A DNA stretch of 64,000 bases from Candidatus Woesearchaeota archaeon (GCA_013329045.1 DUKZ01000020.1:33489-97488); one strand, 5' to 3'; shown: positions 23,547-58,967, counted from the first letter of the stretch. Numbers and translations: made by a program. The notes: generated by a model from the letters alone, not told the origin.

Positions 23547-24212
23547 ATGAAGAAAAAGATAATTGCGGTCATTCCTGCATACAATGAGGCTCAAAGGATC
23601 GAGCCGGTCATCCAAGAGACAAAAAGGTATGTTGATGAGGTTATTGTCGTTGATGATGGAAGCCAGGATGACACAGCTCAAATCGCAGCTAAGGCTGGGG
23701 CCCATGTCCTCCAGCACCTTATTAACCTCGGCAAGGGTGCAGGGCTCAAGACCGGGTGTGAATGCGCAGTGCTTCATCACGCTGATATTATCATCATGCT
23801 TGATGCAGATGGCCAGCATGAGCCAGTGGATATCAAGCGTTTTATTGAGAAGGTAAAGGAAGGGTATGATATTGTCTTTGGGGTGAGGGAATTACAGAAG
23901 GGAAGCCCCTTCATTCTCCGCCTGGGCAATGAGATCATCTCCACCATGATCTTCCTCCTCTTCCACATCCACATCAAAGATTCTCAATGTGGGTTTCGCG
24001 CATTTACTGCAAAGGCATATGAAAGCATCAAATGGCGCTCCACTGATTATGCTTTAGAGTCTGAAATGATTGTGAATGCAAAACAGCACAAACTCTCCTG
24101 TACCCAACTAAAGATTAAGAACATTTACAATGACAGGTTTAAGGGAACAGGGGTCATTGATGGAATGAAGATTGTGGCAAACCTTTTGTGGTGGCGTATC
24201 AGGGGGGTTTGA
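23547..24212 (+). CDS. GT2 glycosyltransferase, polyprenyl-phosphate sugar synthase type (DPM1/GtrB/AglJ-like)
   Basis: IIAVIPAYNEA...VVDDGSQDDT...DADGQHEP motifs. It is followed by a DUF2304 partner. Confidence 0.8.
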   Translation: MKKKIIAVIPAYNEAQRIEPVIQETKRYVDEVIVVDDGSQDDTAQIAAKAGAHVLQHLINLGKGAGLKTGCECAVLHHADIIIMLDADGQHEPVDIKRFIEKVKEGYDIVFGVRELQKGSPFILRLGNEIISTMIFLLFHIHIKDSQCGFRAFTAKAYESIKWRSTDYALESEMIVNAKQHKLSCTQLKIKNIYNDRFKGTGVIDGMKIVANLLWWRIRGV

Positions 24213-24323: not shown

Positions 24324-24656
24324 ATGGTACTTGGCATTCAGGTTGCAGGCGTCTGTTTCGCCTTGTTCATGCTCTACATCACGTACACGAGCTCAAAGAA
24401 AAAGCAGTTTACCGCAAAGGAATGGGTGTTTTGGAGCCTGATTTGGGTCATGATCGGTCTCATCTCCCTATTCCCAGAACTGCTCGACAGTGTTGTAAAG
24501 CGCTTTCATTTTGCGCGGGCGCTCGATGTCATCATCATTGGAGGATTCATTTTTCTTCTGGGTATCATGTTCTACCAGTATACGGTTATTAGAAAGTGCC
24601 AGAGGAGCATTGAGGAATTGGTGAGGAAGGTTGCGCTGGAAAAGGAGCAGCGATGA
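24324..24656 (+). CDS. DUF2304 small membrane protein (typical partner of GtrB-like GT2)
   Basis: 110 aa with three hydrophobic helices. ATGA overlap with the next gene. Confidence 0.55.
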   Translation: MVLGIQVAGVCFALFMLYITYTSSKKKQFTAKEWVFWSLIWVMIGLISLFPELLDSVVKRFHFARALDVIIIGGFIFLLGIMFYQYTVIRKCQRSIEELVRKVALEKEQR

Positions 24657-25780
24657 CAAGAGTTGGGACGATTAAGGCCATAGACAAGGTTCTTGGCACG
24701 CTCGGTGTTGTTCTTTTGGGATTGAAAAAAAAGAGTCCGCTGCCAAAGTCATTTTCTTCTATCTTATGCATCCAGTTGTGGGGGATGGGAGAGTCGATCT
24801 TGACGTTGCCTGCAATAATCGCAGTGAAGAAAGCAAATCCAAAGGCGACTATTTCAGTGCTGGCAACTGCAAGGAACAAGGATGTGTTTTTTGGTCAAAA
24901 GGATATTGACAACGTCATTGAGCTTGGCATGTCTCCAGGGATGATTCTTTCATTTATGAGGAAAAACAAGGATATGTTTGACCTTGTCATCGACTTTGAG
25001 GAGTACCTCAATATTTCGGCAATCATCGCGGCGAGGGTTGGAAAGCATACAATCGGGTTTTCAGGGCAGCCAAGATCCAGGGTATACGATGAGTCCATCC
25101 CATACAATGATGCACAGCATGTGGTGGTGACATGCATGGACCTGGCAAGGCTCGCTGGTGCAAAGGGGGTGCCAACAGAATTGCCAACGCTTGGTGCTGA
25201 TCTGTCTGATAAGAAGAGGGTTGATATATTCCTTAGAGAGAGTGGTGTTGGGAAACAGCCTTTTGTCGGCTTTGGAACAAGTGTTGCTGAATCATCAAAA
25301 TCTAGGATGTGGCCAAAAGAGAACTTTGCAAGACTTGCAGATTGGATGATAGGGAAAGAAAATGTCCATGTAGTCTTTGTTGGAACAAGAGGGGAGGTGG
25401 ACGCTATCCAGGAGATCATTGAGCTGATGCATCATAAAGATAAGGCAGTAAATGGGGCAGGAAGGCTGTCAATGAGGCAGCTGTTTGATTTTGTCGGTAG
25501 ATGCAGGATGTTTATTGGAAATGACTCTGGGCCAATGCATGTCGCAGCAGCAATGAGAGTTCCTACGATCGGTTTGTTTGGATGCAATCTCCCGGAAAGG
25601 TTTGGGCCATATGGAAAGAATGCTATGGGCATCAGAAAAGTCAAAGAAAGAAAGCCCTGCATCAACGTCCATCAGGGCGAGGTGAGGGAATGCCAGTTCG
25701 AGCAGACATGCGTCTCATTTATCTGGGTAGAAGATGTGCAGGAAGTGTGTGAGAGATTTTTTCGGAGGGAAAGAAAATAA
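24653..25780 (+). CDS. GT9 family glycosyltransferase (ADP-heptose:acceptor heptosyltransferase-like)
   Basis: GNDSGPMHVAAAMRVPTIGLFG C-terminal signature. N-terminal LWGMGESILTLPAI motif. Confidence 0.75.
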   Translation: MTRVGTIKAIDKVLGTLGVVLLGLKKKSPLPKSFSSILCIQLWGMGESILTLPAIIAVKKANPKATISVLATARNKDVFFGQKDIDNVIELGMSPGMILSFMRKNKDMFDLVIDFEEYLNISAIIAARVGKHTIGFSGQPRSRVYDESIPYNDAQHVVVTCMDLARLAGAKGVPTELPTLGADLSDKKRVDIFLRESGVGKQPFVGFGTSVAESSKSRMWPKENFARLADWMIGKENVHVVFVGTRGEVDAIQEIIELMHHKDKAVNGAGRLSMRQLFDFVGRCRMFIGNDSGPMHVAAAMRVPTIGLFGCNLPERFGPYGKNAMGIRKVKERKPCINVHQGEVRECQFEQTCVSFIWVEDVQEVCERFFRRERK

Positions 25781-26787
25781 TGGGAACAAGAAGAGAATTC
25801 CTCAGGGCTGCTGGAGGGATTGCTGCTCTCGCCCTCACGCATGGGTGCTCTGATCCAGTGTATAAGGGAAGGATTGCCTACCTGCTCCGCCAGCAAGGTC
25901 AGAATCTTGAATTATCTCTTGAGGTCGTTGATCTCGCAGCAGCAGGGACAAGATCATTAAGATCATTATATACAAGCCATATTGGTGATCTGGCTGTTAA
26001 TGGCAATGATCTGTACATAGCAGCATTCCCGGAGGAAATTCTCAAGAGGGTGAGCGTTGGCACAGGAGGGGTAGTTGATCTTCAAAGGGATCAACGATTC
26101 GCATATCGCTTCCCTTCCCCTTTAGGTGATGGCTTCTGTGCAGCATCTCTTCGTGAGAGCGGGAATGGTGGCGCTCATTTTCATATTGGTATTGTTGATG
26201 ACCAGCAAACAAGAGTGATCGTGGAGGATATTGCTCAGACGCAATACGCCGCAACCAGAAGAGGGCCAGATGTTGCTGTCGCTTACGCTAAACAAAGAGA
26301 GTCAATGTTGGAGATATGGAAAGGGATATGGACTCCTGAAAATGGCCAATTGAGAAACGATCAGCAGGTAGGTGATATTCCCATGGCGCCGCCAGATCCA
26401 TTCAAGCCCCAGCAATTGTTTCTTCGATTTGTGGGGGATGCATTAACAGTCTCTGATTCATCGATTGGATGTTTGTATTATGAGAAGGATGGATATCTCA
26501 GCCAGGCAGTCCTTGCCCAAGATGCCAGGATGATCAAACCCGGATCATACCTCTATGTCGATCAGGATGATCGCCGGGCAAGCCTTGTTTTGGATGATGG
26601 CTCGCCAAGAGAGATTTGGAGAACTGGTGGGATGATAAGGATTAGTGATATTCAGGACAGCGTAGCCCTTCTCACAAGAAGAGACGTGTATGGGACAGCG
26701 ATGATCATTGTGGATGTGTATTCTCAGGAGCGAATGATTGTTCCGCAAAAGAAGGGAATGCCGTTCATGCCATTGTTCCTGGATTAA
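25780..26787 (+). CDS. Secreted protein with a twin-arginine (Tat) signal and a Cys shortly after the h-region
   Basis: MGTRREFLRAAGGIAALALTHGCSDP. Unknown function; Gly/Asp-rich. Confidence 0.55.
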   Translation: MGTRREFLRAAGGIAALALTHGCSDPVYKGRIAYLLRQQGQNLELSLEVVDLAAAGTRSLRSLYTSHIGDLAVNGNDLYIAAFPEEILKRVSVGTGGVVDLQRDQRFAYRFPSPLGDGFCAASLRESGNGGAHFHIGIVDDQQTRVIVEDIAQTQYAATRRGPDVAVAYAKQRESMLEIWKGIWTPENGQLRNDQQVGDIPMAPPDPFKPQQLFLRFVGDALTVSDSSIGCLYYEKDGYLSQAVLAQDARMIKPGSYLYVDQDDRRASLVLDDGSPREIWRTGGMIRISDIQDSVALLTRRDVYGTAMIIVDVYSQERMIVPQKKGMPFMPLFLD

Positions 26788-27539
26788 GCGGCATGCACAT
26801 ATTCTCCGTGGGTAAAGAAGCCGACGAGCTGTTTGATCTTCGCAATCTTTGGAAAGAGGTGGTTTTCTAGGCTGGTTGTGTGTTCATCGAAGAGTGCAAA
26901 TACTTCTGGCTTGAGGAGATAGATGCCAGCATTCCCGACATGGGATGATATATGTTTTGGTTTTTCCTGGAAGTCGATGATAAGGTCTCCGTCAAGGATA
27001 GCATTGCCGAACCGTGAAGGTTCATTGATGCTCATGAGTCCCATCGTAGCCAGCTTGTCCTGCTGCATATGCTTTTTTTCCATCTGGTGGAGGTCAAAGT
27101 GGTTATAGACATCCCCGCTCATCACGATAAAATCCTGGTTGGACAGCTTGTCCTTGACAGCGAGCAATGCTTGTGCATTCCCTTTGACTGGCGCTTCGAT
27201 GATTTCTGCTGGAAGAATGCTTTGCTGGACTTCCGAATAGAGTTTCACGCTCTCTTTAGTATGCTGGGTCACGATGTATGCCTGCTTTATGCCATGAGAG
27301 TAAAAGAAATGCAATTGCTCAAGAATGAGGGATCGCTTGTGGAGTGATGAGAGGGAAGTGTGCTGGTGTTCACCTTTGAGCAGGAGCACAACTGTCTTGA
27401 TGGACTGCTCCTGGAGCCCTTTTTGGAGAAAGTATTCTATTGCCTGGCTTCTGCTCCTGATGATGGAGCCATCAACATGAGAATCTATCTGTCGGAGGAG
27501 TGGTTCATCGAGAGAGATGGCAATTTTAGCTTTGGTCAT
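26784..27539 (-). CDS. Ribbon-helix-helix (CopG/NikR-like) domain fused to a degenerate sugar-phosphate nucleotidyltransferase-like domain; putative regulator
   Basis: The ATG at 27539 gives MTKAKIAISLDEPLLRQIDSHV (RHH beta-strand plus helix pattern). The C-terminal GDVY...FGNAILDGDLIIDFQEKPK...NAGIYLLKPEVF matches the NTP_transferase core. The N-terminal GxGTRL nucleotide loop is replaced by KGEHQHTSLSS. Confidence 0.55.
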   Translation of the reverse strand: MTKAKIAISLDEPLLRQIDSHVDGSIIRSRSQAIEYFLQKGLQEQSIKTVVLLLKGEHQHTSLSSLHKRSLILEQLHFFYSHGIKQAYIVTQHTKESVKLYSEVQQSILPAEIIEAPVKGNAQALLAVKDKLSNQDFIVMSGDVYNHFDLHQMEKKHMQQDKLATMGLMSINEPSRFGNAILDGDLIIDFQEKPKHISSHVGNAGIYLLKPEVFALFDEHTTSLENHLFPKIAKIKQLVGFFTHGEYVHAA

Positions 27540-27544
27540 ACTAA

Positions 27545-27561
27545 GTATGAAATAGTATGAA
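27545..27561. promoter_or_regulatory. Direct repeat GTATGAA-ATA-GTATGAA adjacent to the regulator start
   Basis: Seen directly. It shares the half-site with the palindrome at 27649. Confidence 0.35.
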
Positions 27562-27648
27562 CTATTTAAACATTGCGTAATTATCCTCATGAAAGAGAAA
27601 GACTTTTGAGATGATAGGGAAAACCTTATAAAGAAGCGGTAAATAAAA

Positions 27649-27678
27649 GTATGAAATATTCATACCTACAGGTGTAGG
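27649..27678. promoter_or_regulatory. Two perfect palindromes (GTATGAA-ATA-TTCATAC and CCTACA-GG-TGTAGG) 11-40 nt upstream of the gmhA ATG; candidate operator
   Basis: Seen directly. They lie between the divergent RHH gene and the heptose operon. A GGAGGGG SD follows. Confidence 0.4.
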
Positions 27679-27688: not shown

Positions 27689-28303
27689 ATGGAAAACGTG
27701 ATTACGGAAAAAGAGATAGATGAGAAGATCCATCACTGGTTCTTGGAGAGCGCGCGGGTAAAAGAAGAGCTCGCAAGGACGCAGAGGAAGAACATGGCAA
27801 AGATTGCAGCTATCGTTATTGATGCGATCAGGAACGGCAATACCATCTTTGCCTGCGGCAATGGCGGATCGATGTGTGATGCACTGCATTTGACCGAGGA
27901 GCTCACCGGAAGATACAAGAAGAACAGAAAACCTCTCCCGGGACTCTGCCTTGGTGCAAATCAGGGGAGTGTCAGCTGCATCGGGAATGATTTTGGGTAT
28001 GATGATATCTTTTGCCGTGAGGTGCAGGCATTTGGAAAGAAAGGGGATGTTCTCATAGGGTTTAGTACATCAGGAAATTCGCTGAATGTGATAAAAGCGA
28101 TGGGATGTGCAAAAGCGCAGGGGTTAAAAACAATCGCATTGCTGGGAAAAGATGGGGGCAAGATGAAAGGCATGTGCGATGTTGAGATTATCGTTCCCAG
28201 TAATGAATCATCCAGGATCCAGGAGAGCCATATGCTTATCTATCATTCACTAATAGAGCTCGTTGATGATACATTATTTCCGGAGGGTGGAAAACATGAG
28301 TAA
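27689..28303 (+). CDS. gmhA: Sedoheptulose-7-phosphate isomerase (SIS domain)
   Basis: IFACGNGGSMCDALHLTEELTGRY...IGNDFGYDDIF...GDVLIGFSTSGNS...LLGKDGGKM is near-identical in pattern to bacterial GmhA. Confidence 0.85.
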   Translation: MENVITEKEIDEKIHHWFLESARVKEELARTQRKNMAKIAAIVIDAIRNGNTIFACGNGGSMCDALHLTEELTGRYKKNRKPLPGLCLGANQGSVSCIGNDFGYDDIFCREVQAFGKKGDVLIGFSTSGNSLNVIKAMGCAKAQGLKTIALLGKDGGKMKGMCDVEIIVPSNESSRIQESHMLIYHSLIELVDDTLFPEGGKHE

Positions 28304-29768
28304 GCAGTTGCAGGATGCATTAAAGAATGTCGTTGGAAAAAGGATTCTCGTCATTGGCGATGTGATGCTTGATAGGTATGTGTGGGGAAGCGTGGAAAGG
28401 ATTTCCCCTGAAGCGCCAATTCCCATCTGCCTGGTAAAGAGAGAAACAAATGTCCCGGGGGGCGCTGGGAACACAGCTGCAAACATTACAGCAATGAAGG
28501 GAAAATGCACTCTCCTGAGCGTTGTTGGTGATGATGAGGCAAGGAGGATGCTAAACAGCGAACTGGAATCTCGCGGGATTGATGTATCCGCAATGGTCGC
28601 TGAGCAGGAAAGGCCAACGACAAGAAAAACAAGGGTGATGGGCGGCCAGCAGCAGCTGCTCCGGCTGGACTTTGAGGACTCTTCACCGATTAAGGAAGAA
28701 AGCAGGCAAAAGATTATTGGGTATATCAAGAAGAATGTTTCCCTGTTTGACTGCGTGGTCATTTCTGATTATGCGAAGGGGGTCATTGATAGGGAGTTGG
28801 CAGAGGCAGTCGTCCAGGAAGCAGCAAGGGCAAGAAAGCCTTTGCTTGTCGATCCAAAGCCAAAGCATGCAAAATATTTCAAGGGTGCAACATTGATCAC
28901 CCCAAACCATAAGGAGGCTTCTGAGATCGCAGGTATCAGGGAGGAAAAGGAAGCAGACCATATCATCATAGGTAATCATCTCGTGAAGCTGATGGGTTCA
29001 GATATCCTGATCACAAGAGGGGAGAAGGGTATGACCTTGTTTCAGTTGAAGGAGAACGCAATTTCTGTTAATGAGTTCATGACGACGGCAAGGGAAGTGT
29101 ATGATGTGAGCGGTGCTGGGGATACGGTAGTAGCAGCACTTGCCTTATCGATGGCAGCTGGAAATCCCTTAGAGCTGGGGATCATGCTGGCAAATATTGC
29201 TGCAGGGATTAAGGTAGGAAAACTCGGAACTGCTGCTGTCACCTACCATGAGGTAGAGGATAAGATCATGAACATTGACGAGAAGATCAAGTCAAGAGAA
29301 CAAATCACCCTCGTAGCAAAGCAGGTAAGAGCAGAAGGCAAAAAGATAGTCACGACGAATGGCAGCTTTGACCTTCTGCACGCAGGCCACCTGAAATATC
29401 TTAATGAGGCAAAGGCGCAAGGCGACGTTTTGATCGTCGGGCTGAATAGTGATGACTCGGTCAGGCGCTGGAAGAAGACAGTTGGGTATGAGGATTGGAA
29501 AAACAGGCCGATCATTCCAGAGCAGTACCGCGCACGGATGCTTGCTGCATTGAAGAGTGTTGATTATGTGACTATCTTCGATGAGACAGAACCATTTGAG
29601 TTTCTAAACTCAGTCCATCCGGATGTCCATGTCAACGGCTCAGAATACGGGGAAAAGTGTATCGAAGCGGATCTCATCAAGTCGATGGGTGGCAGGATCC
29701 ACATTGTTGAGAAGGAAGCTGGCCTTTCCACATCAGAAGTGATCAAGAAGATCAAGGAGTCAAAGTGA
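28296..29768 (+). CDS. hldE: Bifunctional D-beta-D-heptose 7-phosphate kinase / D-beta-D-heptose 1-phosphate adenylyltransferase
   Basis: The ATG at 28296 follows GGAGGGTGG. The N-terminal PfkB kinase domain has VIGDVMLDRYVWG and DVSGAGDTVVAALA. The C-terminal cytidylyltransferase-fold domain has TNGSFDLLHAGHLKYL. Confidence 0.9.
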   Translation: MSKQLQDALKNVVGKRILVIGDVMLDRYVWGSVERISPEAPIPICLVKRETNVPGGAGNTAANITAMKGKCTLLSVVGDDEARRMLNSELESRGIDVSAMVAEQERPTTRKTRVMGGQQQLLRLDFEDSSPIKEESRQKIIGYIKKNVSLFDCVVISDYAKGVIDRELAEAVVQEAARARKPLLVDPKPKHAKYFKGATLITPNHKEASEIAGIREEKEADHIIIGNHLVKLMGSDILITRGEKGMTLFQLKENAISVNEFMTTAREVYDVSGAGDTVVAALALSMAAGNPLELGIMLANIAAGIKVGKLGTAAVTYHEVEDKIMNIDEKIKSREQITLVAKQVRAEGKKIVTTNGSFDLLHAGHLKYLNEAKAQGDVLIVGLNSDDSVRRWKKTVGYEDWKNRPIIPEQYRARMLAALKSVDYVTIFDETEPFEFLNSVHPDVHVNGSEYGEKCIEADLIKSMGGRIHIVEKEAGLSTSEVIKKIKESK

Positions 29769-30373
29769 TGATAAGCTCTGATGCAGGCAGTAGTAGAAGA
29801 GATGAATTCATCAAGAAGCACATAGAGGAAGTGCAAAAAAGCCTCAGTCGCCTTGATCAGGGAGAGATCAACAGATGCGTGTCCATCTTTTTCGATGCAT
29901 GGAAGCAGAAAAAGACCATCTTTTTCATGGGCAATGGCGGCTCGGGAAGCACGGCCAGCCATTTTGTTGCCGACATGAGCAAGTGGACAATCATTGAGGG
30001 CAGGCCGCGAGTAAGGGCAATTGCCCTAACAGACAATATGCCAAACATTCTTGCCTGGGGAAATGATGATGGATATGAGGCTATCTTTGTGGAGCAGCTA
30101 AAGAACCTGATGGGAAAAGGTGATGTTGTTGTGGGAATTAGCGGCTCTGGAAATTCAAGGAATGTCATTGAGGCGCTAAGATATGCGAATGATAATAATG
30201 CAGCAACCATTGCTTTCCTTGGTTTTGACGGCGGGAAGATGAAAGCAATTGCATCCCATAGCGTCCATGTGAAGAATGATCATATGGGGCAAGTTGAGGG
30301 GATCCATGCAGTGCTCCAGCACATAATTGTTGATGCGTTAAAGAAAGAGATAAAGGACGCAAACGTTCCATAG
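29765..30373 (+). CDS. Second SIS-domain GmhA-family isomerase paralog
   Basis: IFFMGNGGSGSTASHF...GDVVVGISGSGNSRNVIEAL...FLGFDGGKM. ATGA overlap with hldE. Confidence 0.7.
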   Translation: MMISSDAGSSRRDEFIKKHIEEVQKSLSRLDQGEINRCVSIFFDAWKQKKTIFFMGNGGSGSTASHFVADMSKWTIIEGRPRVRAIALTDNMPNILAWGNDDGYEAIFVEQLKNLMGKGDVVVGISGSGNSRNVIEALRYANDNNAATIAFLGFDGGKMKAIASHSVHVKNDHMGQVEGIHAVLQHIIVDALKKEIKDANVP

Positions 30374-30412
30374 GCATCCAGGAGAACATTTATTCGGCGA
30401 GAAAAGGAGGGA

Positions 30413-31276
30413 ATGATGAAAAAGATTGAGAGTATCGAGGAATTGGAAGGGAAGGCAAGAGAATTGCGCATCACTACACTAAAGATGATTCATGCAGCTG
30501 GCTCTGGCCATCCCGGGGGATCATTATCAGCAGCTGATCTGCTCACAGCGATCTATTATCGGTTTATGAGGTTTAAGGCAGACCAGCCAAATTGGCCAGA
30601 GCGAGACAGGCTTATACTTTCAAAGGGCCATTGTTGCCCCATCTTATATGCAATCCTTGCGGATCAGGGATATTTTGAGAAGGAAAAACTCATGACTCTC
30701 AGAAAGATGGGAAGCATCCTCCAGGGCCATCCTGACAGGAATAAAACACCAGGAATAGAAGTTTCATCCGGTAGCCTTGGCCAGGGCCTCAGTGTTGCTG
30801 CGGGTATGGCATTAGCAGGGAAAATAGACAAAAAGCCCTACAAGACATACTGCATCCTTGGCGATGGAGAATTCCAGGAAGGAAGCAACTACGAGGCTTT
30901 GATGGCAGCAGCTCATTTCCGCATTCCAAACCTTGTGGCGATTCTTGATTATAACCAGATCCAACAGTGCGGGATGGTAAAGGATATCATGCATATTGAT
31001 CCAGTCGGTGAGAAAGTGAAAGCTTTTGGATGGAAGGTGTATGAGATTGATGGTCATGATATGGGAGAGATCGTAATGACACTCGAGAAGGCGCAAAAGG
31101 ACACTCAGCCAGTATTTATTGTTGCTCACACGGTGAAAGGGAAAGGTGTCTCGTTCATGGAGCTCAATAAGGATTTCCATGGAAGGGCGCCATCCGACGC
31201 AGAGTTGCATGCTGCGTTGCAGGAACTAGGCACGGTGACCAGCACCCAGCATCCGGCCCAAGGGGGGGTGGCATGA
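30413..31276 (+). CDS. Transketolase, N-terminal (TPP-binding) subunit
   Basis: GSGHPGGSLSAADLLTAIYY and LGDGEFQEG motifs. Split-type tkt. Confidence 0.85.
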   Translation: MMKKIESIEELEGKARELRITTLKMIHAAGSGHPGGSLSAADLLTAIYYRFMRFKADQPNWPERDRLILSKGHCCPILYAILADQGYFEKEKLMTLRKMGSILQGHPDRNKTPGIEVSSGSLGQGLSVAAGMALAGKIDKKPYKTYCILGDGEFQEGSNYEALMAAAHFRIPNLVAILDYNQIQQCGMVKDIMHIDPVGEKVKAFGWKVYEIDGHDMGEIVMTLEKAQKDTQPVFIVAHTVKGKGVSFMELNKDFHGRAPSDAELHAALQELGTVTSTQHPAQGGVA

Positions 31277-32253
31277 TGGCAGAATCGGTCAAGCTTAATC
31301 TTTCTTTCGACACAAGCAAACCAGAGGCGACAAGGGATGGTTTTGGAAAAGGCCTTGTCATCGAAGGTAAAAAGAACAAGGACATTATTGCCCTTGATGG
31401 TGATCTTGCAAACTCTACAAGGTCGGAATGGTTCGGGCAGGAATTTCCTGACCGGTTCTTCAATGTGGGGATTGCTGAGCAAAACCTTGTTGGCATGGCA
31501 GCTGGCCTAGCCCTTGCAGGAAAGATTCCTTTTGCGTGCTCGTTTGCAGGATTCCTTGTCAATAGGGGCCATGACATCATCAGGATTAGTGTTGCCTATT
31601 CAAATGCAAATGTCAAGCTCATTGGCACCCATGGAGGCATCCAGATCGGAGAGGATGGCCCGTCCAACCAGTCGATGAGTGATATTGCCTCTCTCAGGGC
31701 GCTTCCAAGGATGGTTATTGTTAATCCCTGTGACGCTCTCGAAGCGGCAAAGGCTGTTGAGGCATTCGTGAAGACAAAAGGACCGATGTATATGAGGCTC
31801 ACACGCAATAAGCTGCCATATTTTCATAAGGAAGACTACAAGTTCCAGCTCGGAAAGGCAGATATTATAAAGGAAGGCAAGGACGCAACAATCCTGGCAA
31901 CAGGCGCGCTTGTTGCTGAAGCGATGAAGGCAGCAAAAGAATTAGAGAACGAGGGCATTTCGACAAGGGTGATCAACATCCACACGATAAAACCGCTCGA
32001 CGCTGAGGCTGTCCTTCAGGCTGCAAGATCAACGAAGGTGATGATCACTGCTGAGGACCACAATGTCATCGGCGGCCTTGGGGGCGGGGTAGCAGAAGTC
32101 ATCGCTCAGCAGCAGATAAGCATCCCCTTCAGGATCATTGGTGTGAAGGACTCATTCGCAGAGTCTGCAACGCCAGATCAGCTCTTTGAGAAATACGGGC
32201 TGTCCTATCCCCATCTGGTAACCGCAGTAAAGGATCTGATGAAGAGGAAGTAA
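31273..32253 (+). CDS. Transketolase, C-terminal (pyrimidine-binding) subunit
   Basis: Overlaps the N-terminal subunit by ATGA. GIAEQNLVGMAAGLA motif. Confidence 0.85.
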   Translation: MMAESVKLNLSFDTSKPEATRDGFGKGLVIEGKKNKDIIALDGDLANSTRSEWFGQEFPDRFFNVGIAEQNLVGMAAGLALAGKIPFACSFAGFLVNRGHDIIRISVAYSNANVKLIGTHGGIQIGEDGPSNQSMSDIASLRALPRMVIVNPCDALEAAKAVEAFVKTKGPMYMRLTRNKLPYFHKEDYKFQLGKADIIKEGKDATILATGALVAEAMKAAKELENEGISTRVINIHTIKPLDAEAVLQAARSTKVMITAEDHNVIGGLGGGVAEVIAQQQISIPFRIIGVKDSFAESATPDQLFEKYGLSYPHLVTAVKDLMKRK

Positions 32254-32255
32254 GC

Positions 32256-32756
32256 ATGAAAAAAACGATTTATCTTGGTTTTGACCACGGCGCCTTTCAA
32301 GTAAGGGGGTTTGTGAGAAGATACCTTGGGGAAAAACAGGTAGCATACAAAGATTTTTCAAAAGAGAAGCTGGATCCATCAGATGATTATCCGGATGCGG
32401 TAGTGCCAGCAGCAAAGGCCGCTGCAAAAGATGGCTCCTTTGCGATTGTTGGGTGCTCAAGTGGCACGGGAAGCTCGATTGCTGCAAACAAGGTCAAAGG
32501 GATCAGGGCAGCCCCGCTGCATGATGAGACCCTTGTGTATCTGGCAAGGCTTCACAATGACCTGAATTGTCTTGCTCTTCGGGGGATGATTTTTTCCTCA
32601 GATATCCAGATGCAAACAGCAGGTTCATACATTAATTTATTGTCGATCAAGCACACCTCAGTGACAGAACAGGAAGTGAGAAAATTGGTGAAGGTATTCC
32701 TTGAAACCGAGTTTGAAGGCGGCCGTCATCAGAAAAGGATTGAGAAGATCGAATGA
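32256..32756 (+). CDS. rpiB: Ribose-5-phosphate isomerase B
   Basis: LGFDHGAF...GCSSGTGSSIAANKVKGIRAA...EGGRHQKRIEKI matches RpiB/LacAB. Confidence 0.8.
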   Translation: MKKTIYLGFDHGAFQVRGFVRRYLGEKQVAYKDFSKEKLDPSDDYPDAVVPAAKAAAKDGSFAIVGCSSGTGSSIAANKVKGIRAAPLHDETLVYLARLHNDLNCLALRGMIFSSDIQMQTAGSYINLLSIKHTSVTEQEVRKLVKVFLETEFEGGRHQKRIEKIE

Positions 32757-32780
32757 AAGAAGAAGTGAGTTGAAAGAAGG

Positions 32781-33416
32781 ATGAACAAAAAAAAGTCTAT
32801 CATTTCCGTATCATTCCTCTCAGCAGACCAAGGAATGCTCAAAGAGGAGCTCGAATCAGTTGGTACTGCTGATTATTTCCACGTTGATGTGATGGACGGT
32901 AGGTTTGTTCCAAGAAAGACGTACTGCCCGGAAGATATCATCAGCCTCGAACTCACTGTTCCGCTCGATGTGCACCTGATGGTTGATAAGCCGGAAAATA
33001 TGATTGATGATTGGCTAAGAACAGGACCATCTATTGTGGTATTCCATTATGAAGCAACAACAAAGCACAAAGAGATTATTGCAATGCTCCACAAGCAGGA
33101 GGTCAAAGCCGGCATCTCGGTAAAACCGGGAACGCCGGCAAAAGTCCTCTTCCCATTCCTCGCGACAATCGACCTTGTTTTGGTCATGACTGTTGAGCCT
33201 GGCGCTGCGGGCCAATCATTTATGCCAGAAATGCTGGAAAAAGTAAGAGGTTTAAGGAAAGCTGGCTTCAAGGGAATCATCGAGGTCGATGGCGGGATCA
33301 CGCTGGAGAACCAGAAGAAGGCAAAGCTTGCAGGAGCGGACATGTTTGTTTCCGCATCATTCATATTCAAACACAAGGACAGGAAAGCCATTATTCGGCA
33401 GATGCAGGAGGTATGA
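32781..33416 (+). CDS. rpe: Ribulose-phosphate 3-epimerase
   Basis: HVDVMDGRFVP, DVHLMV and EVDGGI motifs. Confidence 0.8.
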   Translation: MNKKKSIISVSFLSADQGMLKEELESVGTADYFHVDVMDGRFVPRKTYCPEDIISLELTVPLDVHLMVDKPENMIDDWLRTGPSIVVFHYEATTKHKEIIAMLHKQEVKAGISVKPGTPAKVLFPFLATIDLVLVMTVEPGAAGQSFMPEMLEKVRGLRKAGFKGIIEVDGGITLENQKKAKLAGADMFVSASFIFKHKDRKAIIRQMQEV

Positions 33417-34075
33417 AGATGGAAATTTGGGCAGATACAGCAAATACAGCGGAGATCGAGAAGATCAATGCGCTTGGAATCCTAGATGGTGTGACAACTA
33501 ATCCAAGCTTGATTGCAAAAGAGGCTGGCGATCCAATCGCGATTTTAAAGAGGATAACATCAGTTGTTAAAGGGCCTGTTTCTGCAGAGGTGATTAGCGT
33601 TGAAGCTGATGGGATGATAAAGGAAGGAACTAAGCTGGCAGGCATTGCTCCAAACATTGTTGTAAAGATCCCAATGGGCATAGAAGGGTTAAAAGCAATT
33701 AAAGTGCTGCATCAGAAAGGTATTCGCACGAACTGCACGTTGACTTTTTCTGCTAACCAGGCACTTCTTGCAGCAAAGGCTGGCGCATCGTATGTCAACG
33801 CTTTTGTTGGAAGAATTGATGATGAGGGTGATGATGGCTTTCGCCTCGTCCAGGATATCCTGGTGATGCTGGAGAACTATAAGCTCCAGTCAGAGCTCAT
33901 CGTCGCATCAATCAGGCATCCCTGGCATGTCCATCTCTCAGCCCAAGCAGGAGCGCATGTTGCAACGATTCCAACAGCAGTCATCGAGAAGATGGCCAGC
34001 CACATAAGGACAACTGAGGGGATCAATAAGTTTCTTGCAGATTGGAACAAGGCAGGAAAGGAATACAAGATTTGA
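33413..34075 (+). CDS. tal: Transaldolase, short Fsa/TalC subfamily
   Basis: WADTANTAEIEK...GVTTNPSL...VVKIPMG...TNCTLTFS...FVGRIDD resembles MJ0960-type transaldolase. Confidence 0.85.
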   Translation: MKMEIWADTANTAEIEKINALGILDGVTTNPSLIAKEAGDPIAILKRITSVVKGPVSAEVISVEADGMIKEGTKLAGIAPNIVVKIPMGIEGLKAIKVLHQKGIRTNCTLTFSANQALLAAKAGASYVNAFVGRIDDEGDDGFRLVQDILVMLENYKLQSELIVASIRHPWHVHLSAQAGAHVATIPTAVIEKMASHIRTTEGINKFLADWNKAGKEYKI

Positions 34076-34235: not shown

Positions 34236-35219
34236 ATGATGTACAAAAATCTGGCATTGGAATTTGTCCGGGCAACCGAAGCAGCAGCGCTAGCCAGCGC
34301 TAAGTGGATGGGCAAGGGCAATGAGAAGATGGCTGATCACGCAGCAGTTGAGGCAATGAGGAAGCATTTCAACTTCATGGATATTGATGGAACGGTGGTT
34401 ATTGGTGAGGGTGAGCGTGATGAAGCTCCCATGCTCTACATTGGAGAGAAGCTTGGCAACGGAAAAGGGCCAAAAGTTGATATCGCTGTTGATCCATTGG
34501 AAGGAACAACAATTACGGCAAGGGGGGATCCAAACGCAATAACCGTTCTGGCTTCCGCACCAAAGGGCCATTTGCTCCATTCACCGGACACCTATATGGA
34601 CAAGATCGCTGTGGGGAAAGATGCTGTTGGTGTCATTGATCTTGATGCATCAGTAAAAGATAACATTCTCGCTGTCGCAGATAAGCTTGGGAAGGATTGT
34701 GATGAGATAACCGTGATTATTCTTGATCGTGACCGCCATATTGAACTCATCAAGCAGGTGAGGGAGTGTGGCTGCAGGATCAGGCTTATTCGTGATGGTG
34801 ATGTTGCAGGCGCTCTCGCCCCAGCTCTTCCAGACTCTGGTATTGACATTTTGATGGGTATTGGCGGTGCCCCGGAAGGTGTTCTTGGCGCTGCTGGCTT
34901 GAAATGTCTTGGTGGTGAGATTCAAGGAAGGCTCAAGTTCAGGAACCCCTCAGAGAAAGAGCGGGCGATTGGTATGGGGTTGAGCGATCCAGAAAAGATT
35001 TTCACCATGAAGGAGATGGTGGGAGGGGAAGATGTGATGTTTGCAGCAACGGGCGTGACTGACGGCACCATCCTGAAGGGGGTGAGATTTATTCATAACG
35101 GCGCATCGACCCATTCATTGGTGATGCGGTCAGCTTCTGGCACAGTAAGATTCATTGAGGCAAATCATAAGTTTGGAGATGAAAGAGGTGATATCCATGA
35201 AAAAAATGAAAGAAAGTGA
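34236..35219 (+). CDS. glpX: Fructose-1,6-bisphosphatase class II / sedoheptulose-1,7-bisphosphatase (GlpX family)
   Basis: ALEFVRATEAAALASAKWMGKG...DGTVVIGEGERDEAPMLYIGEKLG...DIAVDPLEGTT aligns closely with E. coli GlpX. Confidence 0.85.
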   Translation: MMYKNLALEFVRATEAAALASAKWMGKGNEKMADHAAVEAMRKHFNFMDIDGTVVIGEGERDEAPMLYIGEKLGNGKGPKVDIAVDPLEGTTITARGDPNAITVLASAPKGHLLHSPDTYMDKIAVGKDAVGVIDLDASVKDNILAVADKLGKDCDEITVIILDRDRHIELIKQVRECGCRIRLIRDGDVAGALAPALPDSGIDILMGIGGAPEGVLGAAGLKCLGGEIQGRLKFRNPSEKERAIGMGLSDPEKIFTMKEMVGGEDVMFAATGVTDGTILKGVRFIHNGASTHSLVMRSASGTVRFIEANHKFGDERGDIHEKNERK

Positions 35220-36169: not shown

Positions 36170-36720
36170 CAATGAATGGCCCAATCGGGGCAGAGCCCCG
36201 GGGTATCTCCTCAAAAACTTATGAGCTTTAACTGATTGGGGTCACCGCCTTGCTTCCTAATATATTCTTTCATCTGCTCTTCTCCATAGCCATCGCCAAC
36301 AGTATCAATGTGTCCTCCCTCTGTCCAGAAGTGACCTCCCCACAATTCCTCACGGAGCTTAGGAAACCTCTTGAACGTTTCTTTTGCAGTAATGCTTTTA
36401 CAAATCATCATCACTTGCGATGGAGAGTATCGAGGCGCTGCCTCGACAAGAATATGTAAATGATCCTCATCAGTCCCCATCGCATGAAACTGCAAATAAT
36501 ACCGCTTACCAATGCCAAGTAAGATTTCTTTCAAATATTTGCTCACCTCATCGGTGAGTAAATCCTTACGATACTTGACAACAAATACCACATGATATCG
36601 GATGCGATAACTACAATAAGAAGCATAACGCACTTCCATAAAAAGAAAAAAAGCGTCATGTATTCATAAAATGAGAGGCACTACGGGGCAGAGCCCCGGG
36701 GTATTTACCCAAATAGGAAT
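36170..36720. mobile_element. IS200/IS605-family element (tnpA only), with the same hairpin motif at both ends
   Basis: CGGGGCAGAGCCCCGGGGTAT at 36186-36206 and 36684-36704, in direct orientation. They flank a Y1-transposase gene. Confidence 0.65.
36211..36639 (-). CDS. tnpA: IS200-like HUH/Y1 transposase
   Basis: YHVVFVVKYRK...HLHILVEAAPRYSPSQV is the classical IS200 TnpA pattern. 142 aa. Confidence 0.85.
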   Translation of the reverse strand: MEVRYASYCSYRIRYHVVFVVKYRKDLLTDEVSKYLKEILLGIGKRYYLQFHAMGTDEDHLHILVEAAPRYSPSQVMMICKSITAKETFKRFPKLREELWGGHFWTEGGHIDTVGDGYGEEQMKEYIRKQGGDPNQLKLISF

Positions 36721-57855: not shown

Positions 57856-57856
57856 G

Positions 57857-58930: not shown

Positions 58931-58967
58931 TTGGTGCACAACAATCTTTTTATACACTTCCTCCATT

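What the first reader, a model, noticed from the sequence alone, without database searches (positions are those of the whole stretch)
27689..30373. Bacterial-type ADP-heptose biosynthesis cassette (gmhA-hldE-gmhA') inside an archaeal-looking N-glycosylation island that carries three GT9 heptosyltransferase-like genes
GmhA and the bifunctional HldE (PfkB kinase plus adenylyltransferase) are the dedicated enzymes that turn sedoheptulose-7-P into ADP-glycero-manno-heptose. The blocks seen here are very close to the E. coli proteins. Three GT9 genes (24653..25780, 55489..56748, 57857..58930) sit in the same island, next to an STT3/AglB gene. GT9 is the family of ADP-heptose-dependent LPS heptosyltransferases. 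Together with the intron-containing tRNA-Trp and other archaeal hallmarks, this suggests an archaeon that builds a heptose-containing N-glycan or glycolipid using a horizontally acquired bacterial pathway. No GmhB phosphatase and no obvious HldD epimerase are visible in the window, apart from possibly the SDR at 63181.
Basis: partly seen in the sequence, partly recalled or inferred. Interest (0 to 1): 0.8.

Follow-up and report, generated by a model that had tools for sequence, protein, structure and literature searches.

The report
Heptose-making gene cluster in DPANN archaeon
A tiny uncultured archaeon (Woesearchaeota) carries intact-looking genes for making the seven-carbon sugar ADP-heptose right next to its protein-glycosylation machinery, in an order shared by dozens of relatives, which suggests what archaea use this 'bacterial' sugar for.

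Summary
27689-30373 encodes GmhA, a fused HldE and a second GmhA-like SIS protein. Three GT9 genes, an STT3/AglB with WWDYG and an intron-containing tRNA-Trp are also present. The contig is Candidatus Woesearchaeota (DPANN) and was assembled near-identically in six datasets.

- Identity to E. coli is moderate (HldE 38%, GmhA 49%, GmhA' 31%).
- GmhA' is not a duplicate. It belongs to a separate subfamily (H-D-E-H site) that elsewhere travels with HddA/HddC-type heptose clusters.
- The SDR at 63181 is not a convincing HldD.
- No recent bacterial donor is visible.

New findings:
- In 80 metagenome loci the order GGR-AglB-GT2-DUF2304-GT9-regulator-[GmhA]-[HldD]-HldA-GmhB-HldC-GT2 is conserved.
- The window is a rearranged variant. 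It has a fused HldE, and a block (GmhA', pentose-phosphate genes, GlpX, aldolase, IS200) inserted where relatives carry GmhB.
- The conserved "NTP-transferase" is an RHH fusion with a degenerate catalytic loop. It pairs with a palindromic operator (GTATGAA-N3-TTCATAC) found once per locus.

Archaeal heptose enzymes are already published (Tang 2024), but their purpose is not. The AglB/GT9 linkage and the regulator appear undescribed. Verdict: a new variant of a known kind, of moderate-to-good interest.

The parts
18777..19859 (+). Geranylgeranyl-reductase-family flavoprotein; candidate dolichol/polyprenol reductase
   Evidence: TIGR02032 128 bits, below its 158.8 cutoff. Present upstream of STT3 in 24 of 27 related loci.
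19875..23492 (+). AglB/STT3 oligosaccharyltransferase with a charged N-terminal extension of about 320 aa
   Evidence: PF02516 126 bits. SWWDYGHW at residue 814 and 9 TM-like segments. 37% identical to the L071 STT3.
23547..24212 (+). GT2, polyprenyl/dolichyl-phosphate glycosyl synthase-like (PpgS/AglJ-like)
   Evidence: PF00535. NF058614 PpgS 123 bits and TIGR04182 AglJ 106 bits, both below cutoffs. Conserved in 25 of 27 loci.
24324..24656 (+). DUF2304 small membrane protein, partner of the GT2
   Evidence: PF10066 78 bits. Conserved in 25 of 27 loci. PpgS is also encoded beside a small integral membrane protein, Rv3632, in PMC3485146; equating Rv3632 with DUF2304 is from my own knowledge.
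24653..25780 (+). GT9 heptosyltransferase-like enzyme no. 1; anchor of the conserved cluster
   Evidence: PF01075 120 bits. Model pLDDT 86.8 with best folds GT9 3tov, WaaF 1psw and WaaC. NDSGPMHVAAA donor motif. All named homologues are Woesearchaeota/Nanoarchaeota.
25780..26787 (+). Unknown 335-aa protein with a signal/lipobox-like N-terminus; lineage-specific insertion
   Evidence: No Pfam or NCBIfam hit. No counterpart in the 80 related loci.
26784..27539 (-). RHH + nucleotidyltransferase-like protein; proposed ligand-sensing repressor of the heptose operon
   Evidence: RHH_1 21.5 bits (cutoff 20.5) and NTP_transferase 75.7 bits starting at profile position 25. The catalytic loop reads VLLLKGEHQ in the orthologues shown. 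Model pLDDT 94.9 with best folds GDP-mannose pyrophosphorylases. 59% identical to L071, the most conserved of the genes compared with L071.
27545..27561 (.). Two GTATGAA half-sites 10 nt apart, next to the regulator's start codon (candidate autoregulatory site)
   Evidence: Most relatives have GGTATGAA-N14-TTCATAC at this place.
27649..27665 (.). Palindromic operator GTATGAA-ATA-TTCATAC, between a TATA-like box (27626-27632) and the gmhA start
   Evidence: The only exact match in the window. GTATGA-N5-TCATAC occurs once per locus in 47 loci, against 0.09 expected in 810 kb. Consensus and spacing.
27689..28303 (+). GmhA, sedoheptulose-7-phosphate isomerase (canonical type)
   Evidence: TIGR00441 211.1 bits against a 209.45 cutoff. 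PDB GmhA E=1e-53. H61/E65/R69/Q172/H180 equivalents kept.
28296..29768 (+). HldE, fused heptose-7-P kinase and heptose-1-P adenylyltransferase
   Evidence: TIGR02198 362 bits (>345) and TIGR02199 159 bits. PDB HldA 4e84 E=1e-60 and HldC 5x9q E=3.5e-26. DVSGAGD and HAGH motifs visible. 100% identical to P0001.
29768..30373 (+). GmhA' (GmhA2), a second S7P-isomerase-like SIS protein of a distinct subfamily; first gene of the inserted block
   Evidence: TIGR00441 108.9 bits, below cutoff. Subfamily signature D65/T69/G120/E172 in 90-119 of 119 homologues. Homologues sit beside GHMP kinase, HddC-GmhB fusion or HldE-like genes.
30413..34075 (+). Non-oxidative pentose phosphate genes: split transketolase N and C, RpiB, Rpe, transaldolase/FSA (supply sedoheptulose-7-P)
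   Evidence: NCBIfam hits. Gaps of 39, -4, 2, 24 and -4 nt from gmhA' to tal.
34236..36138 (+). GlpX-type fructose-1,6-bisphosphatase and DeoC/LacD-family (class I) aldolase
   Evidence: PF03320 472 bits and PF01791 158 bits.
36211..36639 (-). IS200-type Y1 transposase at the right edge of the inserted block
   Evidence: PF01797 115 bits. Present in the assemblies that reach it (L065-L068).
36759..37439 (+). GT2 orthologous to the GT2 that directly follows HldC/GmhB in canonical clusters (marks the resumption of ancestral synteny)
   Evidence: 57-63% identity to the post-HldC GT2 of related loci. YfhO and the 554-aa protein follow it in L119/L123 as they do here.
38548..42511 (+). YfhO-like and a 554-aa (DUF6044-like) polytopic membrane protein; candidate GT-C type glycan-processing enzymes
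   Evidence: PF09586 hit. Weak DUF6044 hit. Syntenic in L119/L123/L108.
53936..56748 (-). DUF6541 membrane protein and GT9 no. 2
   Evidence: L071 has a GT9b orthologue (49%) and a DUF6541 relative.
57004..60512 (+). SAM methyltransferase, GT9 no. 3 (57857-58930) and a PMT_2 (GT-C) membrane glycosyltransferase
   Evidence: Same gene order in L159/L160.

Best explanation
The window comes from a Woesearchaeota (DPANN) archaeon. It holds a rearranged copy of a gene cluster that is conserved across this lineage.

Proposed pathway:
1. GmhA, and probably GmhA', isomerise sedoheptulose-7-phosphate.
2. [quoted passage not shown]
3. A phosphatase removes the 7-phosphate. Relatives encode GmhB in the cluster; here it lies outside the window or is a generic enzyme.
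4. The HldE C-domain makes ADP-heptose. The product is probably the D,D form here, because no HldD is linked.
5. GT9 enzymes then add heptose on the cytoplasmic face to a dolichol-phosphate-linked glycan. That glycan is started by the AglJ/PpgS-like GT2 with DUF2304, on a lipid trimmed by the GGR-family reductase.
6. AglB transfers the glycan to Asn of surface proteins.

In this population, a block carrying a second isomerase, the non-oxidative pentose phosphate enzymes, GlpX, an aldolase and an IS200 transposase has been inserted after hldE. As a result, substrate supply and heptose activation now form one tightly packed unit.

The divergently transcribed RHH plus pseudo-nucleotidyltransferase protein is proposed to repress the operon. 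It would bind the palindrome that overlaps the predicted transcription start, in response to a manno-configured sugar phosphate or nucleotide.

Shown: gene identities, motifs, folds, synteny statistics, operator conservation and the insertion.
Inferred: enzyme activities, the D,D product, the dolichol acceptor, the N-glycan destination, and repression with its ligand.
For: Identity of the enzymes:
- Curated profile scores and PDB matches.
- Catalytic residues kept in GmhA.
- DVSGAGD and HAGH motifs in HldE.

Host:
- P0001 is 100% identical and named Candidatus Woesearchaeota.
- Six assemblies are 99.98-100% identical over 18-21 kb.
- WWDYG in STT3 and an intron-bearing tRNA.

Linkage, from 80 loci anchored on the Woesearchaeota GT9 clade:
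- STT3, GT2 and DUF2304 in 25 of 27 loci and GGR in 24 of 27 upstream.
- Regulator and heptose kinase in 27 of 30, and GmhB in 23 of 30, downstream.
- HldC as a separate gene in 23 loci.
- The in-cluster SDR is HldD-type: TIGR02197 about 255 bits against about 115 for GalE.
- The L071 HAD passes the GmhB cutoffs.

GT9:
- Full-length GT-B fold closest to GT9 3tov, WaaF and WaaC.
- Donor motif NDSGPMH.

Insertion:
- The GT2 at 36759 is 57-63% identical to the GT2 that follows HldC in relatives, and YfhO and the 554-aa protein follow it.
- Gaps of -8, -1, 39, -4, 2, 24 and -4 nt from gmhA to tal.

GmhA' is a real heptose-pathway isomerase type: coherent signature and heptose-cluster contexts.

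Regulator.
Against: - No GmhB in the window or in about 9 kb to its right, and no HldD. The pathway as encoded here is therefore incomplete, and I could not search the rest of the genome.
- The TIGR02199 and NF008454 scores for HldE, and the equivalog models for all three GT9s, are below curated cutoffs.
- No experiment links any archaeal GT9 to a dolichol acceptor or to AglB. Adjacency could reflect a general glycosylation island.
- GT2 plus DUF2304 may make a Dol-P-sugar donor for the outside-facing GT-C enzymes rather than the GT9 acceptor.
- The large adhesin-like proteins next to the cluster are sequon-poor.
- The regulator's DNA binding and ligand are untested, and distant family members keep a catalytic-looking loop.
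Confidence: 0.6

Rival explanations
1. The heptose is real but goes elsewhere. GT9 enzymes would build a heptose-containing glycolipid, lipoglycan, O-glycan or exopolymer, and AglB sits nearby only because archaeal glycosylation genes cluster in islands.
For: - GT9 enzymes in bacteria act on a glycolipid (Kdo2-lipid A; established knowledge).
- The window holds several GT-C type membrane proteins (YfhO, PMT_2, DUF6541) that could use Dol-P-sugars for other polymers.
- The neighbouring giant surface proteins have few sequons.
- TibC-type protein heptosyltransferases also appear among the fold matches.
Against: The order GGR-STT3-GT2-DUF2304-GT9 is kept in about 25 of 27 loci whose proteins are only about 45% identical. 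That is tighter than loose island clustering. The GT9 start overlaps the DUF2304 stop (24653 vs 24656).
Confidence: 0.25
2. Two separate nucleotide-heptose pathways are encoded. GmhA plus HldE would make ADP-heptose. GmhA' plus the NTP-transferase-like protein would make a GDP- or other NDP-alpha-heptose, as in HddA/HddC systems.
For: - Homologues of GmhA' sit beside GHMP kinases and HddC-GmhB fusions.
- The NTP-transferase-like protein has weak HddC hits: NF049965 at 31 bits and PDB 5xhw/6jq8.
Against: - No GHMP kinase or HddC-GmhB relative in the window: tblastn found nothing at E<=1e-2.
- The NTP-transferase-like protein lacks the GxGTRL loop in the orthologues shown and carries an RHH domain.
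- It is conserved in loci that have no GmhA'.
Confidence: 0.08
3. The cassette is a decaying remnant. After the insertion removed GmhB and HldD, the pathway no longer works, and the PPP genes are simply central metabolism that landed there.
For: GmhB and HldD are absent from the cluster while most relatives have them. An IS200 transposase flanks the block.
Against: - All reading frames are intact with catalytic motifs.
- The sequence is essentially invariant across six assemblies.
- Genes overlap as in a translationally coupled operon.
- The operator and regulator are retained.
- Other relatives also keep pathway genes outside the cluster: 13 loci listed lack an in-cluster GmhA, and L152 lacks GmhB.
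- From my own knowledge, E. coli gmhB mutants are only partly defective.
Confidence: 0.06
4. The contig is bacterial or a chimeric mis-assembly, so heptose genes would be ordinary LPS genes.
For: The best genome-collection hits to HldE are bacterial, at 38-48% identity.
Against: - The same 18-21 kb was assembled independently in JGI, NCBI, ENA and Logan data at 99.98-100% identity.
- Archaeal features flank the cassette on both sides.
- The GT9 clade has only archaeal named members.
- No Kdo or lipid A genes were seen.
Confidence: 0.01

Closest known systems
Gram-negative ADP-L-glycero-beta-D-manno-heptose pathway (GmhA, HldE or HldA/HldC, GmhB, HldD) with LPS-core GT9 heptosyltransferases WaaC/WaaF/WaaQ
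   Same: The same enzyme families and domain fusion, the same catalytic motifs, and GT9 proteins with the same GT-B fold and donor motif.
   Different: - The host is an archaeon with no LPS genes in view.
- Only 38-49% identical to the E. coli enzymes.
- No GmhB or HldD in this cluster.
- The N-terminal (acceptor) half of the GT9 barely matches bacterial ones at sequence level.
- The cluster is linked to AglB, a dolichol-type GT2 and a GGR-family reductase.
NDP-heptose biosynthetic enzymes reported across kingdoms, including archaea (Tang et al., Science 2024; summaries PMC11461863 and PMC11573728)
   Same: Archaeal GmhA, kinase and nucleotidyltransferase sets able to make ADP-heptose. That work also notes that the phosphatase is missing in some (viral and eukaryotic) sets.
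   Different: - Those papers state that the reason archaea make heptose is unknown. Here the genes are embedded in a conserved AglB/GT9 cluster.
- The window's HldE lacks the STTR5 arginine. It reads KEAGLSTS against the motif (F/L)XXGRSTT, so broad NTP use is not predicted.
GDP-D-glycero-alpha-D-manno-heptose pathway (GmhA, HddA, GmhB, HddC) used for S-layer glycan and capsule heptoses in bacteria
   Same: It feeds heptose into surface glycoconjugates. The GmhA' subfamily is found next to HddA-like GHMP kinases and HddC-GmhB fusions.
   Different: The window has no HddA or catalytic HddC. The kinase here is PfkB-type (beta-anomer route).
Archaeal Dol-P-based N-glycosylation (Haloferax Agl pathway: AglJ, AglB, dolichol reductase); Thermoplasma acidophilum heptose-containing N-glycan
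   Same: An AglB with WWDYG, an AglJ-like GT2 and a GGR-family reductase. A heptose in an archaeal N-glycan has precedent.
   Different: The one review read here (PMC11407970) does not connect GT9 or an ADP-heptose pathway with an Agl cluster, and no paper in the searchable library held both 'heptosyltransferase' and 'AglB'. The DPANN host is uncultured.
GMPPA, the catalytically inactive paralogue of GDP-mannose pyrophosphorylase that senses GDP-mannose; enzyme-derived repressors such as BirA and NadR
   Same: A sugar-nucleotidyltransferase fold that has lost its catalytic loop and may act as a ligand sensor. The GMPPA/GMPPB complex is among the top fold matches.
   Different: - Here the fold is fused to an RHH DNA-binding domain and paired with a conserved operator.
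- No solved structure among the top 50 matches has this fusion.
- GMPPA's sensor role, and the BirA/NadR comparison, are from my own knowledge.

Membership tests
GmhA (sedoheptulose-7-phosphate isomerase, TIGR00441), gene 27689-28303 | Score at or above the curated equivalog cutoff | tested here: met
   211.1 bits against 209.45.
GmhA (sedoheptulose-7-phosphate isomerase, TIGR00441), gene 27689-28303 | Catalytic/metal residues H61, E65, Q172, H180 and R69 (E. coli numbering, from my own knowledge of the GmhA structures) | tested here: met
   All are identical in the alignment.
GmhA (canonical), gene 29768-30373 (GmhA') | Score at or above the curated cutoff, and the canonical active-site residues | tested here: not met
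   108.9 bits against 209.45. E65D, R69T, T120G and Q172E. It is a member of a distinct GmhA-like subfamily, not of the canonical equivalog.
GmhA-like subfamily associated with heptose clusters (GmhA') | Shared signature H61/D65/T69/E172/H180 and placement in nucleotide-heptose gene clusters | tested here: met
   D65 in 117 of 119 homologues, E172 in 119 of 119, H61 and H180 in 119 of 119. Heptose-cluster contexts in L076, L077, L161 and L163. Enzyme activity was not tested.
HldE (bifunctional heptose-7-P kinase / heptose-1-P adenylyltransferase) | Kinase domain reaching the TIGR02198 cutoff, with the PfkB DxxGAGD motif | tested here: met
   362.1 bits against 345. DVSGAGD in the translation. 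PDB HldA E=1e-60.
HldE (bifunctional heptose-7-P kinase / heptose-1-P adenylyltransferase) | Adenylyltransferase domain reaching the TIGR02199 cutoff, and the full-length NF008454 cutoff | tested here: not met
   159.3 bits against 181.5, and 445.5 against 521. These are still the best hits, the HAGH motif is present, and PDB HldC gives E=3.5e-26. The protein is divergent rather than absent.
Complete ADP-L,D-heptose pathway | GmhB phosphatase present | tested here: not met
   No tblastn hit in the window with the L071 GmhB. No HAD domain among the window ORFs scanned or in the called genes to the right. The rest of the genome was not searchable.
Complete ADP-L,D-heptose pathway | HldD 6-epimerase present | tested here: not met
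   The window-edge SDR, full length from L159, scores GalE 146, dTDP-glucose 4,6-dehydratase 123 and heptose_epim 110 bits. The in-cluster SDR of relatives scores heptose_epim about 255 bits.
Glycosyltransferase family 9 (ADP-heptose-dependent heptosyltransferases) | PF01075 above the gathering score, for all three genes | tested here: met
   120, 73 and 99.7 bits against a cutoff of 22.
Glycosyltransferase family 9 (ADP-heptose-dependent heptosyltransferases) | GT-B fold matching solved heptosyltransferases over the full length, with the donor-site motif | tested here: met
   For gene 24653-25780: TM 0.78/0.84 to 3tov, 0.72/0.81 to WaaF 1psw, and matches to WaaC. NDSGPMHVAAA motif. At the position of the Asp of the N-terminal 'GD' motif in the aligned GT9 structure 3tov, this protein has Glu, and G46/E47 are invariant in the clade. 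That this carboxylate is the catalytic base, equivalent to WaaC D13, is from my own knowledge and was not aligned here.
Glycosyltransferase family 9 (ADP-heptose-dependent heptosyltransferases) | Equivalog-level identity with WaaC, WaaF or WaaQ; use of ADP-heptose as donor | tested here: not met
   All equivalog scores are below cutoffs, the best being TIGR02195 at 93, 87 and 116 bits against 134.6. Donor use cannot be tested with these tools. It is supported only by co-occurrence with the heptose kinase in 27 of 30 loci.
AglB/STT3 oligosaccharyltransferase | STT3 domain plus the WWDYG catalytic motif | tested here: met
   PF02516 126 bits. SWWDYGHW at residue 814.
RHH (CopG-type) transcription regulators | Ribbon-helix-helix domain, with a cognate repeated or palindromic operator near the regulated promoter | tested here: inconclusive
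   RHH_1 21.5 bits against 20.5. The model shows two N-terminal helices. The conserved palindrome occurs once per locus. DNA binding was not tested.

The most novel reading that the evidence does not exclude
Woesearchaeota as a lineage put heptose on their surface proteins through a conserved AglB-linked ADP-heptose/GT9 regulon. This would be the missing physiological role for archaeal heptose synthesis. The regulon would be switched by a previously undescribed kind of repressor: an RHH domain fused to a catalytically dead sugar-nucleotidyltransferase that senses a heptose or mannose nucleotide and binds GTATGAA-N3-TTCATAC over the transcription start. In this population, an inserted pentose-phosphate module with a second isomerase ties sedoheptulose-7-phosphate supply directly to heptose activation.
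Probability: 0.35. Interest if true: 0.75.

Novelty: new variant of a known kind. Interest (0 to 1): 0.58.

Why it matters
The authors of the 2024 work on heptose enzymes across kingdoms say that why archaea make manno-heptose is unknown, and they suggest looking at neighbouring genes (PMC11573728). This locus and about 80 relatives give a concrete, testable answer. The heptose genes are wired to AglB, a dolichol-type GT2 and a lineage-specific GT9. That points to heptosylated N-glycans, or at least dolichol-linked glycans, on the surface of DPANN archaea, organisms that live attached to hosts and depend on their surface.

The work also yields three practical things:
- a candidate sugar-nucleotide-sensing archaeal repressor with a defined operator that can be tested in vitro;
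- a natural example of central-carbon genes being spliced into a glycan cluster;
- a reminder that ADP-heptose, an innate-immune agonist, has archaeal sources.

Tried and rejected
- ARAGORN found no tRNA. Rfam did.
- An exact look-up of the 501-aa HldE ORF failed because the real start is 11 codons later.
- SDR at 63181 as HldD: rejected. The full-length protein scores best as GalE/dehydratase and is only 26% identical to the L071 cluster SDR.
- A second, GDP-heptose pathway built on GmhA' and the NTP-transferase: rejected. There is no HddA/HddC relative in the window and the catalytic loop is degenerate.
- Regulator gene disrupted in some population variants, suggested by odd gene calls in L068 and L070: rejected. 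The DNA and translations are identical.
- Finding a bacterial donor by phylogeny: my neighbour-joining trees are poorly resolved (bootstraps 35-58 for the relevant nodes). They only show that there is no close donor and that the kinase tends to group with Woesearchaeota HldA.
- Bacterial promoter and terminator scans over the operon are at chance level, as expected for an archaeon.
- STTR5 promiscuity motif: absent.
- Searching the rest of the genome for gmhB and hldD was not possible.
- Literature searches for heptosyltransferase with AglB, Woesearchaeota with heptosyltransferase, and an RHH-nucleotidyltransferase sugar repressor found nothing relevant in the searchable library. That is not proof of absence.

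Full report
**1. The observation**

- Gene 1 (27689-28303) reaches the curated GmhA equivalog score: TIGR00441 211.1 bits against 209.45.
- Gene 2 is a PfkB kinase fused to a cytidylyltransferase-like domain. It passes the HldE kinase-domain model (TIGR02198, 362 against 345). TIGR02199 is its best C-domain hit at 159 bits, below the 181.5 cutoff.
- Gene 3 is a SIS protein whose best model is also GmhA, but at only 108.9 bits.
- Three PF01075 (GT9) genes, an STT3 with SWWDYGHW, and a 118-nt tRNA with anticodon CCA and an intron are all present.
- The true HldE start is most likely 28296 (490 aa), overlapping the gmhA stop. Gene 3 most likely starts at 29768.
- 'Very close to E. coli' is too strong. 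tblastn identities are 37.6% (HldE), 49.4% (GmhA) and 31.4% (gene 3).

**2. Whose DNA it is**

- The 490-aa HldE is 100% identical to a database protein named Candidatus Woesearchaeota archaeon. NCBI places that phylum in Nanobdellati, i.e. DPANN.
- The same 18-21 kb was assembled from JGI, NCBI (GCA_013331745.1), ENA and Logan data at 99.98-100% identity. A chimera is excluded.
- GC content across the cassette (0.47) matches its surroundings.

**3. The cassette is part of a conserved lineage-wide cluster**

The next-best HldE homologues are only 46-50% identical. The closest, L071, shows the same neighbourhood: STT3, GT2, DUF2304, GT9, an NTP-transferase-like gene on the opposite strand, GmhA and HldE. 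After HldE, however, it has a HAD gene and an SDR. That HAD passes the curated GmhB cutoffs.

All named close homologues of the GT9 at 24653 are Woesearchaeota or Nanoarchaeota. I used an alignment of that clade to fetch 80 metagenome loci and scored them with the window's proteins.
- Upstream, among 27 loci with at least 5.5 kb: STT3, GT2 and DUF2304 in 25, and the GGR-family flavoprotein in 24.
- Downstream, among 30 loci with at least 4.5 kb: the NTP-transferase-like gene and the heptose kinase in 27, and GmhB in 23.
- In most loci the kinase (HldA, about 310 aa), GmhB and the adenylyltransferase (HldC, 23 loci) are separate genes in that order.
- They are often preceded by an SDR that is clearly HldD-like: TIGR02197 about 255 bits against about 115 for GalE.
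- Only 22 loci have GmhA inside the cluster, so pathway genes can sit elsewhere in these genomes.

The annotations of the upstream genes fit dolichol-linked glycosylation.
- The GT2 resembles PpgS, AglJ and Dol-P-hexose transferases.
- In mycobacteria PpgS is likewise encoded beside a small integral membrane protein, Rv3632 (PMC3485146). Equating Rv3632 with DUF2304 is from my own knowledge.
- A predicted GGR reduces dolichol phosphate in Haloferax (reference 32 of PMC11407970).

**4. How the window differs from the canonical cluster**

- HldA and HldC are fused here, as in L071 and L073.
- There is no GmhB and no HldD. tblastn with the L071 GmhB finds nothing in 64 kb.
- Extending 9 kb to the right finds no HAD gene. 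It shows the edge SDR to be a 369-aa GalE/dehydratase-like protein with an insertion.
- The GT2 at 36759-37439 is 57-63% identical to the GT2 that directly follows HldC in relatives. YfhO and the 554-aa protein follow it in L119, L123 and L108 as they do here.
- It follows that 29768-36639 is an insertion into the ancestral cluster, at the slot where relatives carry GmhB. The inserted block holds gene 3, split transketolase, RpiB, Rpe, transaldolase/FSA, GlpX, a class I aldolase and an IS200-type transposase.
- The 335-aa unknown at 25780 is a second lineage-specific insertion: none of the 80 loci has a counterpart.
- The junctions are tight. Gaps from gmhA to tal are -8, -1, 39, -4, 2, 24 and -4 nt. 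Eight genes therefore probably form one transcript. This is an inference.

**5. What gene 3 is**

Its 119 nearest homologues (47-59% identity) carry names such as Hodarchaeales, Odinarchaeota and candidate division WS2. They share a signature that differs from canonical GmhA at the metal/catalytic site. His61 and His180 are kept, but E65 becomes D (117 of 119), Q172 becomes E (119 of 119), R69 becomes T and T120 becomes G.

Their contexts are heptose clusters:
- GHMP kinase, SIS, SDR and an NTP-transferase-HAD fusion (L076).
- GHMP kinase and SDR with sugar-modifying enzymes (L077).
- An HldE-like protein, an NTP-transferase, SIS and Wzy (L161).
- Rpe, GHMP kinase and SIS (L163).

Gene 3 is therefore best read as a second, independently derived sedoheptulose-7-phosphate isomerase, not a duplicate of gene 1. 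No GHMP kinase or HddC-type partner is present in the window.

**6. The GT9 enzymes**

- The three copies are only 24-25% identical to each other.
- An AlphaFold model of the cluster copy (pLDDT 86.8) matches GT9 3tov (TM 0.78/0.84), E. coli WaaF and WaaC over the full length. It also matches the protein heptosyltransferase TibC.
- The donor-site motif NDSGPMHVAAA is kept.
- At the position of the Asp of the N-terminal 'GD' motif in the aligned GT9 structure 3tov, this protein has Glu, and G46/E47 are invariant in the clade. That this carboxylate is the catalytic base, as D13 is in WaaC, is from my own knowledge and was not aligned here.
- Equivalog-level scores are below cutoffs. The N-terminal acceptor half is very divergent at sequence level, as expected for a new acceptor.

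**7. A regulator and its operator, found on the way**

The 'NTP-transferase' (26784-27539, minus strand) is the most conserved of the genes compared with L071 (59% identity).
- Its first 45 residues match RHH_1 (21.5 bits, cutoff 20.5).
- The nucleotidyltransferase match begins only at profile position 25.
- Where enzymes have LAGGxGTRL, the orthologues shown read VLLLKGEHQ or similar.
- A phmmer search of 1.84 billion representatives finds 367 relatives at E<=1e-10. Nearly all the best 150 are full-length RHH fusions. Distant ones keep an ILAGGxGTR-like loop, while the heptose-cluster subfamily has lost it.
- The model is confident (pLDDT 94.9). Its nearest folds are GDP-mannose pyrophosphorylases, including chains of the GMPPA/GMPPB complex, and the matches cover only the transferase domain.

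In the 149-nt divergent intergenic region there is a perfect palindrome, GTATGAA-ATA-TTCATAC (27649-27665). It starts 23 nt downstream of the start of a TATA-like TTATAAA and ends 24 nt upstream of the gmhA start. Two GTATGAA half-sites lie next to the regulator's own start.
- GTATGA-N5-TCATAC occurs once per locus in 47 related loci (47 hits in 810 kb, 0.09 expected) and once in the window.
- The 7-mer GTATGAA is in 43 of 45 distinct intergenic regions.
- The palindrome usually begins 14 to 26 nt after the start of the TATA-like box and ends 1-15 nt before the first start codon.
- Given the usual archaeal TATA-to-start distance (general knowledge), the site overlaps the transcription start, which is the position of a repressor.
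- Binding, ligand and direction of control are all inferred.

**8. Origin**

- My neighbour-joining trees are weak. The window groups with L071 and L073 at bootstrap 35-39. Its kinase domain falls in a clade with 25 Woesearchaeota split HldA sequences at bootstrap 58.
- Genome-collection hits are bacterial at 38-48% identity.
- The data fit an old acquisition followed by vertical descent and rearrangement in Woesearchaeota. They do not show a recent bacterial transfer.

**9. What is known and what is new**

- Functional NDP-heptose enzymes in archaea were reported in 2024. The same authors say the reason archaea make heptose is elusive and propose looking at neighbouring genes (PMC11461863, PMC11573728).
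- A heptose occurs in the Thermoplasma acidophilum N-glycan (PMC11407970).
- I found no paper in the searchable library that connects heptosyltransferases with AglB, or Woesearchaeota with heptosyltransferases, or that describes an RHH-nucleotidyltransferase sugar regulator.
- The HldE here lacks the STTR5 arginine (KEAGLSTS), so ADP-heptose is the simplest predicted product.

**10. Verdict**

The cassette is real, archaeal and very probably functional in nucleotide-heptose synthesis. Its most likely use is GT9-dependent heptosylation of a dolichol-linked glycan that AglB transfers to protein. That rests on strong synteny but on no experiment. The missing GmhB and HldD remain the main gap. It is a new variant of a known pathway in a new setting, with an apparently undescribed regulator-operator pair attached.

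Noticed in passing
window 26784-27539 (-), 27545-27561, 27649-27665; loci L079-L158, L071: The conserved 'NTP-transferase' is an RHH fusion with a degenerate catalytic loop. It is paired with a palindrome, GTATGAA-N3-TTCATAC, that occurs once per related locus (47 hits against 0.09 expected) just downstream of a TATA-like box. The wider RHH-nucleotidyltransferase fusion family has 367 representatives at E<=1e-10, and some keep a catalytic-looking loop.
   Followed up: yes
window 29768-36639: GmhA', the split transketolase, RpiB, Rpe, Tal, GlpX, a class I aldolase and an IS200 Y1 transposase form a block inserted into the ancestral heptose cluster, where relatives have GmhB. Ancestral synteny resumes at the GT2 at 36759. 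L152 also has transketolase genes about 3 kb after HldC.
   Followed up: partly
window 3020-3137 (+): tRNA-Trp (anticodon CCA) with an intron of about 44 nt after the anticodon loop. Rfam detects it but ARAGORN in bacterial mode does not. The intron holds AUGAUAA and CUGA strings that loosely resemble box C/D motifs, but it is short.
   Followed up: partly
window 19875-20840 (STT3 residues 1-320): AglB carries a lysine/glutamate/aspartate-rich N-terminal extension of about 320 aa, ahead of the first membrane segment. It contains three copies of a motif like (E/A)IDF(G/S)KIT. In L071 the AglB instead has a C-terminal PPIase (rotamase) domain.
   Followed up: no
window 42000-53000, with 43623-47723 and 48438-51824: A lower-GC stretch (0.37-0.40, against about 0.46) encodes a 1366-aa S8 subtilase fusion and a 1128-aa CBM96/CARDB protein. 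Both are very rich in N-x-S/T sequons (2.0 and 4.3 per 100 aa). The giant Big_9/cadherin-like proteins at 3961-18624 have only 0.1-0.24 per 100 aa.
   Followed up: partly
window 25660-25715 (GT9 residues 336-353): The Woesearchaeota GT9 clade has invariant C336, H340, C347 and C353 in a C-terminal loop that the model predicts with low confidence. This may be a metal-binding insertion. The iron-containing heptosyltransferase TibC is among the fold matches.
   Followed up: no
window 25780-26787 (+): A 335-aa protein with a twin-arginine-like, lipobox-like N-terminus (MGTRREFLRAAGGIAALALTHGC) has no family hit. It has no counterpart between GT9 and the regulator in any of the 80 related loci.
   Followed up: partly
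loci L081, L084, L085, L089, L096, L098, L099, L106, L108, L119, L123, L136, L139; L140: One sub-type of the cluster has no in-cluster GmhA (regulator, then HldD or an unassigned gap, then HldA, GmhB and HldC). L140 carries a GmhA'-type isomerase next to a second, divergent kinase (23% identity) and an HldC-like gene on the opposite strand, hinting at a second nucleotide-heptose route in some relatives.
   Followed up: no
window 1407-2975, 27-875: A GH77 4-alpha-glucanotransferase (429 bits) and a type II/IV secretion ATPase fragment lie at the left edge. They look like ordinary DPANN carbohydrate and pilus genes, unrelated to the finding.
   Followed up: no
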